Source: Eledone cirrhosa | Taxonomy: Eukaryota | NCBI GenBank assembly: GCA_964016885.1 | Contig: OZ024760.1 | Coordinates: 12,586,001-12,650,000 of the forward strand | Direction: 5' to 3' | DNA length: 64,000 nt | Shown: in pieces, positions 9,991 to 58,497 of the stretch | Layout of the letters: the number at the start of each line of letters is the position of its first letter | How positions within the stretch are numbered: the stretch's first letter is position 1 | The notes under the pieces: generated by a model | Databases searched by the model: none | Told to the model about the DNA's origin: nothing | The model's input: the letters and a program-made list of their open reading frames with translations, nothing else | Position numbers and translations under genes: made by a program

Positions 9991-10737
9991 TGTGTATGTA
10001 CGTGTGTTATAACCAAGATTGTTTGTGATATATATATATATATATATATAACTGTATGTGCAGTAAGTTCATATTTTCAGTGAAATACTACATGTGGTTC
10101 TTACACGGTAAATTATAGTTAAAAGACTAAAAACAGTCATAAAACATTAAAACTAGTTCCATCACATCACAAAAGTTTCTCAAACTCAGAAAATATCCAA
10201 CACCTGGTTATGGTACCTGCCTCAACCCTTTAGCACTTAAACCGGCCTTAACTGGCCAGAATTCTCTCACCTCTTTCTGTTCAAACCGGCCATAACTGGC
10301 AGCTCATACTTATCTAAAACATTAAAAACCTTTTTCCATTTCTCTTCTACAAAACATCAACACACTCGACTTACTGAGAAGTAATTTTTACCTGACCTGA
10401 CGCCGTCATTAACGGCATTTTGCTGTTTCAACAGCCATTCTTTGCATTGAGTTTCTCTCATAATTTTAAGAATTCTAACAAACAGGCTCCATCTCTGGTC
10501 GGTCTTCGAGACAACTTTGTTTGTTTGTGGTTTCTTTTTAATTGTTTTTTTAAATTTTTTATGTGTTGTTTTAAAGAAAGAGCCCCCCCCCCCCCACCCA
10601 AAAGAAGGTAATAAAAGTAACCTAACTGAACACCGGAGCTTGTAGTCTTTGTTAAAATAAAACTCCACACACCTACTGATACTGCTATTATTCCAGGTAA
10701 CCAACACCAAAACCAGGAAAATAGAGAGAGACTCTTC

Positions 10738-10772
10738 ACTTACCTGCAAAAAAAAGGAAAAAATAATAAAAA
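10738..10772 (-). other. Candidate recursive splice site: polypyrimidine tract + CAG|GTAAGT
   Basis: Minus strand TTATTTTTTCCTTTTTTTTGCAG|GTAAGT, junction 10744/10743. Confidence 0.5.
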
Positions 10773-13279
10773 TAACAACAATAATAACAACAATAATGAT
10801 AATAAAATAATATAAAATGAAATAAAATAAGCAATTTTTAGCAGAGTTAAAATTAAAGCTAAGAACTTGAAAATTAATATGAATGTCAAACAATGTTTAA
10901 TAAAAGATTGGAAATTGAATTATAAAATATTGAAAGACAAAAAAGAAATGGAAAAAAAAAAAATGGAGGTTTTAAATCTAAAAACACACAAACACATGTA
11001 CACACACACAAACACATGTACACACACACACACAAACACATGTACACACACACAAGCACATGTACACGCACACACAAACACATGTACACACACACAAGCA
11101 CATGTACACACACACGCATATAGGCATTCACAAATGCACACATACATACAAACACAGGTACACATACATACACATACATTCACAAACACATACAGACATT
11201 CACAAACACGCAGACACACACGAATGCAGACAAACACACACATGCACACAAAACACACTATATATATCATTGTATATATGTGTAATTATATGTGTGTTTT
11301 TGTGAGTGCTTTTATACTCACACATACATATGTATATATGTATATATATATATATATATGTGTGTGTGTGTGTACACATATACTCACACACACACAAAGA
11401 GAAACAAACAAACGAAATAAATTAATTAAGCCCCCCCCCCCCCCCCCCCCAATAAACGTCATTCTAGGAACAAAAGATGTGAAATGACAGGTTTTGTCTG
11501 ACATGTATTTTGTAGAATAAACAGCTATAATTATGATTACTACATTGATGATGGTGGGGGTGGGGGGGTGGGGTGGGGGGGTGGGGGTTGTGATGATGAT
11601 AGTGATGGTGATGATGATGATGAGGATGGTGACAAAAAAATGAGGATGATGGTGATGGTGATATTGATGATGATGGTGATGATGATGGTGATAATGATAA
11701 TGATGATGATATACAGGATGACAATAAAGATGATGATGATGATGATGATGATGATGAAAATAAACATGATAATGATGATGATAATGATGGTGATGACAAT
11801 AATGCTGAGTAAGAGAGCTATAAAACAGCTATAAAACAGCTATAAAACAGTTATAATAAACCTTGAAGCAGTTTTCATAATTTCAATAGACGTAGTTACT
11901 ACATAATAAATTTAACCTGGAACTACCAAAAGACATTTCTAAAATATATCTTGTCATAAAACCTTATATATATACAGATACATACACACACATATATATA
12001 TATATATTCAGATACATACACACACACATATATATATATTCAGATACATACAGACACACACATATATATATTCAGATACACACACACACACACATATATA
12101 TATATTCAGATACACACACACACACATATATATATATATATTCAGATACACACACACACACACATATATATATATATATATATATATATATATATATACA
12201 GATACACACACACACACACACATATATTCAGATACACACACACACACACATATATATATATTCAGATACACACACACACACATATATATATATATATATA
12301 TATATATATATATATATATATATATATATATATACAGATACACACACACACACACATATATATATATTCAGATACATACACACACACATATATATATATA
12401 CAGATACACACACATATATATATATATATACACACATCATTGATATATACTGTCTCTCTCTCTCTCTACTTCACACACACACACTCTCTCTCTCCCTCCC
12501 TAGCTCTCTTTACCTCGCCCACTCTCTCTCCACCTCCTCTCTCTCTCTGTCGCTTTATAAAACCTAACGAGAGAAGAGGTGAGAAAGAGAGAAAAGGAGA
12601 GGGATAAGAGAGGGTGAGAGAGGGAGAGATGGAGAGAGAGAGGGTGAGAGGGAGAGAGAGGAGCTTAGAGGGAGAGAGGGGAAGACGGAGAGGGAGGAAG
12701 GTAGAGAGAAAGAAAGAGAGAGATAGATAGAAATAGTGGTGTATGTTAGAAAATGAAGATTAATTTATTAATAATAACATGCCTTGTTGTTGTTGTAGTA
12801 GAGTTAACCAATTCTTTATTGATCACCATTATTCATGAATCACTATTAGGACTGTCATGTTAATTGAGTATTATTTAACATAATTTACTAGGCTTCCACT
12901 CAATATTTCAACAATTTTTCATAATTTCAAACATTATTTTGCAATACTTTAAAAAAAAACACAGCAAAACTTCCAGAAAATTCTACAAAAACTAGCAACA
13001 AAACATCTCCCCCCAAATAATAATAAAAGAGATTCCTGCAGTTTTATGTCTGTTCTTCTGTCCACAGAAAACACGTTTCCATCAATTTTGGAAATTATTA
13101 TGTATAAAAAACAAAAAAAAAAACAAAAAAAAAACAAGAGAAAACAAGAGAAAACAAAGAAAAACAACAACAGCAACAAAAAGTCTTGTGATAGCAAACA
13201 CAATAACTCAGTGTGTGTGTTTTGTATGTGTATATGTATGTGTGTGTGTATATATATATATATATATATGTATATATAT

Positions 13280-13571
13280 GTAGGAGGTGAGTTTTATTGT
13301 AGTACAATAAAGCAATATCGGATAAGAAGCACTCTACAGTTTGTAGGACTGGAGTATACATAATATATAAGATTAAAAGGTGGTTAAAAGAGTTCCATGT
13401 ATTTTATTATGCGCATTTCAAAAACAAATATCATCATGCAATAACATTTGTGTTTTCATCAGATAAAACAGGAAGACATGATATGAAGGTTAAAAACACT
13501 TGTGGACAGTGCAGTTTTAAATCAACATATATGTTAATTTAAAACTGCACTATCCACATGTGTTTTTTAAC
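13280..13571 (-). mobile_element. Hammerhead-bearing Penelope-like repeat, family B, with fold-back end
   Basis: Homologous to 29858-30172 and 62785-63171; hairpin at 13489-13571. Confidence 0.78.
13402..13468 (-). ncRNA. Hammerhead ribozyme motif (family B)
   Basis: TTTTAT-CTGATGA-15-bp stem II-GAAA-TGCGCA-TA-ATAAAA; palindromic stem III ATGCGCAT. Confidence 0.78.
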
Positions 13572-13689
13572 ACCAGTTGCTTTCACTTCAATTTATTATA
13601 TATTTATAAATTTATAAATTTACAAATCTACAAACTTATAAATTTCTGGTTGGTTGGTTGGTTCCACAACCAGATAGTTGTTTATATAT

Positions 13690-13734
13690 AGTCATAGTCC
13701 TTTCGTCACACACTCTGTGACCTCTTCAGTGACT
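13690..13734 (-). ncRNA. Minimal hammerhead ribozyme motif (family A, left arm)
   Basis: Mirror of 13862-13906. Confidence 0.75.
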
Positions 13735-56232: not shown

Positions 56233-56600
56233 CTCATAAAACCAGAACTAGTTTCAACCAACTTGACATCAAAAGGATTAAATATGAACCCTTTAAAAAG
56301 GTCAATTTTATTTCATAGAACCAGAACTGGTTTTAACTGGGTTTGGTATCCAAAGGGTTAAATACGAACCCTTTAAAATAGCTGGCTTTGTTTCATAGAA
56401 CCAGAACCAGTTTTGACTGGGCTGGTATCAAAGGGGTTAAATACAAACCCTTTAAAAAAGGATGGTTTTATTTCATAGAACCAAAACTGGTTTTAACTGG
56501 GTTCGATATCAAAAGAGTTAAACAGAAACCCTATAAATTGGGTTGTTTTCTTTCACAGAACCAAATCAGGTTTTAGCCCTGTTAGTATTAAAGGGGTCAA
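56233..56600. repeat. About 80-bp diverged tandem repeat matching the other piggyBac-like MITE end
   Basis: TTTCATAGAACCAGAACTGGTTTT...AAAGGGTTAA is the reverse complement of 21243-21297. Confidence 0.75.
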
Positions 56601-57920
56601 AGTGCATATTGTTGTTGTTGTTGTAGTAGTATGATGCAGCCAAAGATAGTGTAGAATCTTGAATGAAGACCTGTTAAAGTTGACATAGATTCTGTCTCAT
56701 TATAAGACTGGTAGATACCACAACACATTCCTGGACTTGGCAGATATGTCTGCTATGTAGAGAGTAAGTCACTGCTACACACATACACATGTATGTATAG
56801 AGTAACTATACAGACACACACATGCATGTATGTAAATAGTGACTACATACATGCACACACACACATGTATATAGTAACTACACACACATATACATACACG
56901 TGTGCATATATATATGTATATATATATATATGTATGCATGCATATCCATACACATACAAACACACACAACTATGTGTGTGTTTGTATTTTTTATTTGCTA
57001 TCAAAAATATATCCGCACACACACACATACATATATATACACATATATATATATACACACACACATATCTATTATAGAAACACATGTGCATATATATCAG
57101 AGAGAGAGAGACACACACACACATACATACATATACACACACACATACACTCACACATATATACACTCACACACACACACATACACTCACACACTCACAT
57201 ACACATATATACACTCACACATATATACACTCACACACACACACACACACATACACTCACACACTGACACACTAACACAACAAATAGTTTAGATATACAA
57301 AATGCAAGTTAGGATAGATTGCTATCAGGTCTTGTTTTATTTAGCACAGGGGGGGGGGGGCAGATGTGACCCTTTTGTCTGATTACCCCCCCCCCCCCCT
57401 ACTCACATATCTGGATGAAATGGGCCTATGTTGTTGTTTAGTCCTAGGTCAGCTTTCATTGAGCAGACCACATGATCATGATCAATGTTGGTGATGTTGT
57501 ACAGTAAACCAGAGAGATCTTAACTCACACATCTCTCTCTCTCTCTCTCTCTCTCTATCTATCTATCTCTCTATGTCCCTCTCTCTCTGTCTATTGATCT
57601 ATCTCTCTATGGAACTGGAGTCCCCCTGTCACTGCCCCCCACAGACATCATGGTGTAGAGATGATCAACTCCTCAGAGATGCTTTTCCTATTTCTTTTTA
57701 AAGTAGGAGTGACTTAGATTTAGTGGGCCAAGCAATCCCTGATACCAATCACATAGCTGCCCTGATTTTAGTTTGAAAGGGTTTCAATTTCCTATGGAGT
57801 AGGTGTTGGAGGTGGTGGTGGTGTTGGTGGTGGTGTTGGTGTCTCATATCTTATAGTAGCTGCCAAATAACTCATCAAAAAATATTGTGGGATGAATAAA
57901 ATATTTACCAGCAACATGTG

Positions 57921-58122
57921 ATACCAATATACCAATATACCAATATAACAATATATTAATATACCAATATACCAATATATTAATATACCAATATACCAAT
58001 ATATTAATATACCAATATAACAATATATTAATATACCAATATACCAATATATTAATATACCAATATACCAATATAACAATATATTAATATACCAATATAC
58101 CAATATATTAATATACCAATAT
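57921..58122. repeat. ATACCAAT-based short tandem repeat
   Basis: Direct inspection. Confidence 0.9.
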
Positions 58123-58418
58123 ATGCAATGGCTGGAGAGAAATGAAGCAAGCATGCTCTGTTGGATGTGCAATGTCAATGTGTGTGAACAACCAAGCATG
58201 GATGTGTTGAGAGAGAAACTGTGTGTAAGAGGGATATACCAATATGCCAATATAGTCCATATAGTTAATTATTGTCTCAAAACTTTTGGAAATAACTGGA
58301 AAAGGATGACAACAAAACAACAACAAGTTATTGTCAGAGAATCAGTTTGCTTGAGGTGTGTGAAACTCCACCTCTTCCATCCCACCATCAAAATTTAAAA
58401 CAGAACAAACAACAACAG

Positions 58419-58497
58419 TTTTACCTGAGATATTCAAAAGTCAAAGATTGGATCTCTTTCAGAAACTTACCTAAAATGAGAAAGAAGAAAAAAAAAC
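58419..58497 (-). other. Candidate recursive splice site with 46-nt micro-exon (58470-58425); paralogue of the 29.7-kb site
   Basis: TTTTTTTTCTTCTTTCTCATTTTAG|GTAAGT...ATCTCAG|GTAAAA. Confidence 0.55.

What the first reader, a model, noticed from the sequence alone, without database searches (positions are those of the whole stretch)
10369..58497. Three co-oriented polypyrimidine-YAG|GTAAGT junctions: candidate recursive-splicing ratchet points in a giant mollusc intron
Seen: on the minus strand, strong 3' splice sites are fused directly to consensus 5' splice sites at 58471/58470, 29719/29718 and 10744/10743, spaced about 29 and 19 kb apart in a window with no visible coding exon. Each has a downstream CAG|GTAAAA donor (58424, 29664, 10391; also TCA|GTAAGT at 10374). 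Established: AG|GT ratchet points followed by cryptic RS-exons are the signature of recursive splicing in long Drosophila and vertebrate introns. Inference: the window lies in a very long minus-strand intron that is removed stepwise; I am not aware of this being characterised in cephalopods. Caveat: two of the three sites are paralogous, so only two are independent.
Basis: partly seen in the sequence, partly recalled or inferred. Interest (0 to 1): 0.75.

Follow-up and report, generated by a model that had tools for sequence, protein, structure and literature searches.

The report
Recursive splice sites in octopod EXT1
Three fused end-of-intron/start-of-intron signals lie on the transcribed strand of a giant intron of the EXT1 gene in an octopus-like animal, and about a hundred look-alikes across its genome share the hidden short exon known from flies, so this intron is likely cut out in steps, although no RNA intermediate has been seen.

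Summary
Observation confirmed. The three minus-strand polyY-YAG|GTAAGT sites lie on the sense strand of EXT1, between coding exon 1 (116 kb upstream) and exon 4. Exons 2-3 are missing from the assembly, probably in a gap beyond site 3, so the intron is likely intron 1 (at least 188 kb). A public contig joins exon 1 directly to exon 2. Genome-wide the strict motif occurs 103 times, against 18-26 per single-base control variant. Of 94 independent sites, 33 have a second donor 20-100 nt downstream (background 3.6%; controls 2 of 56) and 85 have the fly TT at -5/-6. A second giant intron (Kv4/Shal, 173 kb) has the same layout. Two window sites are a short duplicated cassette with a 47-bp identical core. 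Against: a looser motif is not enriched; co-orientation is partly generic. Splicing intermediates could not be tested. Verdict: likely fly-type recursive splice sites, a known mechanism in a group where my searches found no report. This scan noted the same kind before in this genome (titin) and in other genomes.

The parts
1..64000 (-). Interior of a giant EXT1 (exostosin-1) intron, likely intron 1, at least about 188 kb, phase 2. Outside the window, in continued window numbering: coding exon 1 at 180911-179959, a fourth co-oriented fused site at 115819 (no cryptic donor within 200 nt), exon 4 at -11494
   Evidence: Exon 1 upstream and exons 4 onward downstream; exons 2-3 not in the assembly, one gap between site 3 and exon 4; exon 1 joined to exon 2 in contig X4; fourth site
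58471..58504 (-). Site 1 acceptor: branch-point-like TAAT, pyrimidine tract with TT at -5/-6, TAG
58425..58470 (-). Site 1 regenerated donor GTAAGT and predicted 46-nt cryptic exon
58419..58424 (-). Site 1 cryptic-exon donor CAG|GTAAAA (score 3.3 against 9.2 for the regenerated donor)
   Evidence: own weight matrix with recalled generic frequencies
58357..58525 (-). Duplicated cassette, copy A (81% identical to copy B; 47-bp identical core over the junction)
29719..29749 (-). Site 2 acceptor: TAAT, pyrimidine tract with TT at -5/-6, TAG
29665..29718 (-). Site 2 regenerated donor GTAAGT and predicted 54-nt cryptic exon (about 8 nt longer than copy A through a short internal duplication)
29659..29664 (-). 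Site 2 cryptic-exon donor CAG|GTAAAA
29603..29770 (-). Duplicated cassette, copy B
10744..10775 (-). Site 3 acceptor: long T-rich tract and CAG; highest acceptor score of the four in the intron; no TAAY branch motif found at -50..-16
   Evidence: one of the 103 strict matches
10673..10743 (-). Site 3 regenerated donor GTAAGT and likely 71-nt cryptic exon ending at TAG|GTGTGT (donor at 10672-10667)
   Evidence: length range of the genome-wide set
10369..10396 (-). Further donors for site 3 (+347, +352, +369); less likely, in a repeat-derived stretch

Best explanation
The three sites lie on the sense strand of a giant EXT1 intron and are likely fly-type recursive splice sites (ratchet points) that would remove it in pieces. 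Shown: host gene, strand, motif anatomy, downstream donors, genome-wide enrichment, and a mature join of exon 1 to exon 2 in one contig. Inferred, from the Drosophila and vertebrate mechanism (PMC8605326): each acceptor is recognised by exon definition with the weak donor 46-71 nt downstream; exon 1 is spliced to the AG; this rebuilds CAG|GTAAGT, which outcompetes the weak donor, so the cryptic exon and the next piece of intron are removed and nothing remains in the mRNA. Predicted pieces: 64, 57, 29, 19 and at least 19 kb if 115819 is used, or 121, 29, 19 and at least 19 kb if not. If the intron is intron 1 (phase 2), accidental inclusion would read Arg-stop at once, so skipping has to be nearly complete. 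One of sites 1 and 2 arose by duplication of a cassette of about 180 bp, and both copies likely remain under selection.
For: Host gene and strand. In 464 kb, both strands, only 4 strong fused sites exist, and all 4 are on the sense strand inside this intron. Strict motif: 103 genome-wide against 22 read backwards, 53/3 with +2 broken, 61/3 with +5 broken, 78/3 without the AG and 10 with a purine at -3. 100 of the 103 were listed and fetched, and collapse to 94 families. Second donor at +20..+100: 33 of 94, against 3.6% of background windows, 7 of 94 on the opposite strand, and 1 of 27 and 1 of 29 in controls. Without a matrix: GGTRAG in 21 of 94 against 1.7%, and 0 of 56 controls. Median length 57 nt, frames 12/13/12. 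Branch motif CTRAY in 31 of 94 against 9.7%. TT at -5/-6 in 85 of 94 against 26 of 56 controls; Duff et al. report 196 of 197 in flies. Kv4/Shal intron 1 (173 kb) holds 3 sense and 0 antisense sites. The 47-bp identical core over the duplicated junction has p=0.0014 by permutation.
Against: The loose motif Y8NYAG|GTRAGT is not enriched over its reversed control (408 against 402), so the signal is confined to the strongest sites. Sites 1 and 2 fall outside the strict pattern (an A at -7), so the genome-wide rate applies to them only by likeness; site 1's acceptor score (10.3) is below the 5th percentile of the set (11.8). Roughly a fifth of strict matches are expected background. Co-orientation of neighbours (15 of 16) is also seen in pooled controls (11 of 14). 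T>A skew is only slightly above controls (0.039 against 0.016, p=0.048). Host genes were identified for only 2 of the 94 families. 61 of 94 sites lack a donor at the stricter score, and 42 of 94 at the laxest. Site 115819 has no cryptic donor, and site 3 has no branch motif in the window tested. One of the 4 duplicate pairs tested shows no conserved core (L172/L173, p=0.63). Exons 2-3 are not in the assembly, so the intron number is inferred.
Confidence: 0.75

Rival explanations
1. Regulated poison exons (expressed RS-exons): the acceptor is real, but the downstream donor is used in part of the transcripts, giving a stop right after exon 1 and decay of the mRNA, which tunes EXT1 levels.
For: Same anatomy. 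Inclusion would give an immediate TAA in the phase-2 introns of both EXT1 and Kv4 (read from the exon end). Decayed isoforms would be missing from contigs. Vertebrates may have many expressed RS-exons (PMC8605326).
Against: The regenerated donor is much stronger than the downstream donor (9.2 against 3.3-3.8). A poison exon does not need a perfect GTAAGT at +1, yet breaking +2 or +5 lowers the count about fivefold. The one EXT1 contig runs from exon 1 to exon 2.
Confidence: 0.12
2. Chance motifs in T-rich intron DNA, one of them passively duplicated, with no use in splicing.
For: About a fifth of strict matches are background. The loose motif is not enriched. Only two sites are independent. 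The window was selected for the motif.
Against: 0 of 300 resamples gave two sites on one strand. 4 of 4 strong sites in 464 kb lie on the sense strand of this intron. Cryptic donors follow all three sites at the expected distance. The duplicated junction has a conserved core.
Confidence: 0.08
3. Boundaries of ordinary non-coding exons: either 5' splice sites of internal first exons that end in T-rich sequence, or acceptors of alternative last exons.
For: AG|GTAAGT alone is the plain donor consensus. Neither internal promoters nor 3' ends could be tested.
Against: Purine at -3 gives 10 matches against 103 for pyrimidine, which is acceptor behaviour. Branch motif and TT at -5/-6 are enriched. 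AWTAAA is not enriched downstream (1.5-2.5 against 2.1 per kb), whereas second donors are.
Confidence: 0.05

Closest known systems
Drosophila intronic ratchet points with cryptic RS-exons (Ubx, kuz, Bx, luna; Duff et al. bioRxiv 10.1101/006163, passages read; Joseph et al. PMC8605326, part 1 of 6 read)
   Same: Fused strong acceptor and GTAAGT donor; TT at -5/-6; short cryptic exon (about 50 nt) with a weaker donor and no frame bias; several sites per very long intron; pieces of 19-64 kb (flies 2.6-63.6 kb).
   Different: Octopod; the introns (173 kb and at least 188 kb) exceed the fly maximum of 133 kb. Use is not shown by RNA. Some sites here are short duplicated cassettes; the word 'duplicat' does not occur in the Duff preprint text. 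Whether fly ttv or Shal carry ratchet points is unseen: neither name is in the preprint's main text and its supplements are closed.
Vertebrate recursive splice sites and RS-exons (Zhang et al. PMC6110456, passages read; Sibley et al. 2015 not held, known here only as cited in PMC8605326)
   Same: AGGT motif in long introns, followed by an RS-exon that often carries a premature stop.
   Different: Only nine fully suppressed intronic sites were noted definitively in mammals (as cited in PMC8605326), and the motif is hardly enriched in vertebrate large introns (ratio at most 1.5; PMC2773006 Table 2). Here the strict motif is enriched about 4-6-fold over single-base controls.
Exon-intron hybrid in the 273-kb intron 1 of human EXT1 (Kelly et al. 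PMC4482092; passages of text and of supplement file 2 read, file 1 not searchable)
   Same: Same gene and a giant first intron; stepwise splicing proposed. That the exon 1 boundary falls at the same residue in human is recalled, not from a call.
   Different: The paper reports that its SAMD4A sites lack the fly motif; I did not establish the EXT1 site's motif from the passages. No homology of position or sequence with the octopod sites was tested, so shared ancestry is not claimed.
Sequence-predicted RP-site enrichment in sea urchin, bee, beetle and mosquito large introns (Shepard et al. PMC2773006, parts 1-2 of 5 read)
   Same: Same kind of evidence (motif enrichment in large introns of invertebrates).
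   Different: No mollusc or other lophotrochozoan among its 13 species; the parts I read do not use the cryptic-exon signal.

Membership tests
Drosophila-type intronic ratchet point | Strong 3' splice site fused to a consensus 5' splice site | tested here: met
Drosophila-type intronic ratchet point | On the sense strand of a very long intron | tested here: met
   EXT1; the intron number is inferred because exons 2-3 are missing from the assembly. Kv4 intron 1 likewise. 2 of 2 host genes examined.
Drosophila-type intronic ratchet point | Motif enriched over matched controls in the genome | tested here: inconclusive
   Strict motif enriched (103 against 18-26 per variant); loose motif not enriched (408 against 402). 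Sense against antisense over all long introns could not be counted without an annotation.
Drosophila-type intronic ratchet point | TT at -5/-6 | tested here: met
   All three window sites; 85 of 94 against 26 of 56 controls
Drosophila-type intronic ratchet point | Short cryptic RS-exon with a weaker downstream donor, no frame bias | tested here: met
   46, 54 and 71 nt in the window; 33 of 94 genome-wide against 3.6%, frames 12/13/12
Drosophila-type intronic ratchet point | Cryptic exon absent from mature mRNA | tested here: inconclusive
   One contig (depth 22, run kind not on record) joins exon 1 to exon 2; contigs drop rare forms
Drosophila-type intronic ratchet point | Exon-to-ratchet junction reads, saw-tooth coverage, recursive lariats | not testable with these tools
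   Only assembled contigs were available; raw reads of total RNA are needed
Drosophila-type intronic ratchet point | Conservation of the junction between species | not testable with these tools
   The genome has no relatives in the genome search. Between paralogues, a conserved core in 3 of 4 pairs tested; 2 further pairs were not tested.
High-copy interspersed repeat carrying the motif | Many homologous copies in random orientation | tested here: not met
   2 full copies of the site 1/2 cassette; 94 families among 100 sites; 2 of 93 junction regions hit another fetched locus

The most novel reading that the evidence does not exclude
Octopods use fly-type recursive splicing at a hundred or more sites, and their giant introns gain new ratchet points by copying a complete 150-550 bp cassette (branch point, acceptor, GTAAGT, cryptic exon, donor) to another place in the same intron. 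Five pairs fit this: EXT1, Kv4, two more same-chromosome pairs and one between chromosomes; their homology is centred on the junction, while control duplicates run from 647 bp to over 3 kb. In 464 kb only 2 local two-copy stretches exist, and one is this cassette. Caveats: post hoc and few pairs; a sixth pair is a 768-bp tandem-repeat element; nearby duplicates are no more frequent among these sites than among controls (3 pairs in 100 against 4 in 114, read by eye).
Probability: 0.3. Interest if true: 0.7.

Novelty: new member of a known kind. Interest (0 to 1): 0.5.

Why it matters
If confirmed, fly-type silent recursive splicing extends to cephalopods, whose 3-Gb genomes have introns far longer than those of flies. 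The class would then span insects, an echinoderm (predicted) and a mollusc, while vertebrates have few such sites. The work gives a list of 100 precise sites and two named host introns (EXT1, Kv4/Shal) that total RNA-seq of an octopus can test directly. The duplicated cassettes offer a concrete route by which ratchet points arise as introns grow, a question on which my one search turned up no paper by title or abstract. It also flags an assembly hole: EXT1 exons 2-3.

Tried and rejected
RNA evidence at the sites: no RNA holder listed. Laying X4 and X1 on window 10060-10960 gave cover only on repeat fragments and none at the junction in either run, so the test had no power. Motif search for EXT1 exons 2-3 with short recalled patterns found none; tblastn with P0001 and P0004 found none; the genome search gave two weaker matches elsewhere (52-53% identity, presumed paralogues, not checked). 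Loose motif as a test: no enrichment. Co-orientation of neighbours as proof: weakened by controls. Orientation by nearby coding exons: only 11 exon-like candidates in 93 flanks of 10 kb (4 same strand, 7 opposite), none scanned against Pfam, uninformative except that the sites seem far from coding exons. Site 126060 (TTTTTCAG|GTGAGG) fails the later filters and has no cryptic donor; dropped. High-copy repeat and structured RNA: rejected. A third host gene (C21, 21.75-21.96 Mb) was not examined. Joseph 2018 and Sibley 2015 are not held and were not seen. Literature searches for a prior report: 'recursive splic' with octopus 0 papers, cephalopod 1 (both terms only in its references), mollus 2 and squid 1 (listings only, unrelated titles), EXT1 3, ttv/tout-velu none relevant in the 15 of 43 listed; searches listed no cephalopod recursive-splicing paper. 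The library lacks most subscription journals.
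Full report
Observation. On the minus strand, YAG|GTAAGT occurs three times, at 58471, 29719 and 10744, each after a T-rich tract with no other AG nearby; the plus strand has none. Sites 58471 and 29719 share a 177-bp stretch at 81% identity. A genome search found these two copies and one weak partial match; the search skips common words, so this is a lower bound. 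Block-wise Markov resampling of the window gave two or more sites on one strand in 0 of 300 runs. The window is otherwise rich in microsatellites, minisatellites and interspersed repeats, with no Rfam match.

Host gene. The window is G000:C21:12586001-12650000. I fetched 200 kb on each side. A minus-strand reading frame at window numbering 180911-179959 matches human exostosin-1 at E 1e-103. tblastn with a 76% identical full-length relative placed six further coding blocks between -11494 and -24043, all on the minus strand. Residues 316-381 (exons 2-3 by the recalled human numbering) are found neither in the 464 kb nor in the genome search. The only gap in the region (200 N at -8187) lies between site 3 and exon 4, so they are probably there. 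A 2235-nt contig of run X4 (kind not on record; it behaves as spliced RNA) follows exon 1 to AG|GT and continues in frame into the residues that follow in P0001. The sites are therefore on the sense strand of EXT1, most likely in intron 1 of at least 188 kb. If exons 2-3 were lost at an unmarked collapse further upstream, the sites would be in intron 2 or 3 of the same gene. A neighbouring gene is 81% identical to Octopus bimaculoides neurabin-1-like, so the animal is an octopod.

Local pattern. Across 464 kb and both strands, a relaxed rule and a matrix trained on 93 other sites each return four fused sites: 115819, 58471, 29719 and 10744. All are on the sense strand inside this intron. After joining to exon 1 (ending CAG), each window site would rebuild CAG|GTAAGT (score 9.2), stronger than exon 1's own donor (6.7) and than the donors at +46, +54 and +71 (3.3, 3.3, 3.8). 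These scores come from my own matrix with recalled generic frequencies. In phase 2, inclusion of any of the cryptic exons reads Arg-stop at once. Site 115819 has no donor within 200 nt.

Genome-wide class. Y13-N-YAG|GTAAGT occurs 103 times in 3.0 Gb (22 read backwards). Controls: 53 for three variants at +2, 61 for three at +5, 78 for three without the AG, and 10 with a purine at -3. The looser Y8-N-YAG|GTRAGT gives 408 against 402 backwards, so it shows no enrichment. I fetched 10 kb around the 100 listed sites of the 103. Six pairs were merged, leaving 94 families (one merge rests on a weak hit). Controls were the first 30 of 53 and the first 30 of 61, reduced to 27 and 29 after removing duplicates. 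A donor lies at +20..+100 in 33 of 94 sites, against 3.6% of background windows, 7 of 94 on the opposite strand and 2 of 56 controls. Counts peak at 40-80 nt, the median is 57 nt, and frames are 12/13/12. With laxer scores the figure is 41-52 of 94 against 7-15%. GGTRAG alone: 21 of 94 against 1.7%, and 0 of 56 controls. CTRAY at -50..-16: 31 of 94 against 9.7% (controls 6 of 56). TT at -5/-6: 85 of 94 against 26 of 56; the fly figure is 196 of 197. None of these features was part of the search pattern, except that -5/-6 had to be pyrimidines. Neighbours within 10 kb-1 Mb are co-oriented in 15 of 16 pairs, but also in 11 of 14 pooled control pairs, so that test is weak. Flanks are T-rich in the site's orientation in 69 of 93 cases, as is the EXT1 sense strand, but only slightly more than controls.

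Second host gene. I chose the C12 pair because it is a duplicate. Kv4/Shal exon 1 ends at C12:45210731 and exon 2 starts at 45383883 on the plus strand. This 173-kb phase-2 intron (one 200-N gap) holds three plus-strand sites and no minus-strand site. Host genes are thus known for 2 of 94 families, and both fit.

Duplicated cassettes. The homology of sites 1 and 2 spans only -72 to +113 around the junction. It has a 47-bp identical run across the junction (permutation p=0.0014) in a block with 27 differences in 180 columns. Other pairs are also short and centred on the junction: 155, 200, 558 and 333 bp (the last with an adjacent 191-bp block); a sixth pair is a 768-bp tandem-repeat element. 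Five control pairs extend over 647 bp to more than 3 kb. Conserved cores were found in 3 of 4 pairs tested; two pairs were not tested. In the 464 kb only two local two-copy stretches of 100 bp or more exist, and one is this cassette. This fits selection on both copies, or short-range copying of whole cassettes; gene conversion could also give an identical core. The comparison is post hoc and small.

Mechanism and rivals. Best reading (0.75): silent recursive splicing by exon definition and donor competition, as described for flies (PMC8605326). The anatomy is shown; every splicing step is inferred. A regulated poison exon (0.12) has the same anatomy but does not need a perfect donor at +1. Chance (0.08) and ordinary non-coding exon ends (0.05) fit the controls poorly; polyadenylation signals are not enriched downstream.

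Comparison with what is known. It works like the Drosophila intronic ratchet point and meets the sequence-level features tested; motif enrichment holds for the strict pattern only. The defining RNA features and conservation between species could not be tested, so membership is likely, not shown. Shepard et al. (PMC2773006) found enrichment in five invertebrates, none a mollusc. Kelly et al. (PMC4482092) reported an exon-intron hybrid in human EXT1 intron 1; Zhang et al. (PMC6110456) do not name EXT1 in their main text. My searches found no report in cephalopods or molluscs, in a library that lacks most subscription journals. Earlier notes of this scan report the same kind of site in this genome (titin) and in at least 11 genomes; these are unchecked AI notes and are not counted as support.

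Verdict. A real feature and a new member of a known kind, well supported at sequence level by a genome-wide signature and two host introns, unproven at RNA level. Interest 0.5.

Noticed in passing
G000:C21 about 12577814-12578013 (window numbering -8187..-7988; L070): A 200-N gap that probably hides EXT1 exons 2-3; they are absent from the assembly search but exon 2 is present in contig X4.
   Followed up: partly
EXT1 exon 1/exon 2 join: Exon 2 begins with a GT-led motif, so the mature join itself rebuilds a moderate donor (score 4.6). Probably a by-product of the conserved coding sequence.
   Followed up: no
G000:C12:45210732-45383882 (L246-L268): Kv4/Shal intron 1 (173 kb) with three sense-strand sites (45297996, 45315602, 45354588); two are a 200-bp, 96% identical cassette, and the third has a similar acceptor and may be an older copy.
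   Followed up: partly
G000:C28 (over 121 Mb): None of the 100 listed strict sites lies on C28, while control motifs do (2 of 53, 4 of 78, 7 of 61). Unexplained.
   Followed up: no
G000:C4:227.98-229.16 Mb (L191-L194): Four co-oriented strict sites over 1.2 Mb; possibly one giant gene.
   Followed up: no
L220 (C14) and L242 (C24): The fused motif sits at the head of a tandem-repeat element found on two chromosomes, with decayed acceptor-donor repeats behind it.
   Followed up: no
window numbering -18058..-17944 and 111612..111726: The only other local two-copy stretch in the EXT1 region (116 bp, 82%); no splice motif seen.
   Followed up: partly
L051:2501-4498, L060, L061: Neighbouring genes downstream of EXT1: neurabin-1-like; exons that look like ZC2HC1-like (plus strand) and TMEM205-like (minus strand) genes, names recalled and not checked.
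   Followed up: partly
L032 (window numbering 77608-77684), plus strand: Two TAG|GTAAGT motifs 68 nt apart on the antisense strand of the intron; one has a 12/15 pyrimidine tract but fails the later filters.
   Followed up: no
window 1-493, 2389-3433, 9146-10007, 22892-23518: Homogeneous minisatellite arrays (20-, 34-, 28- and 40-mers).
   Followed up: no
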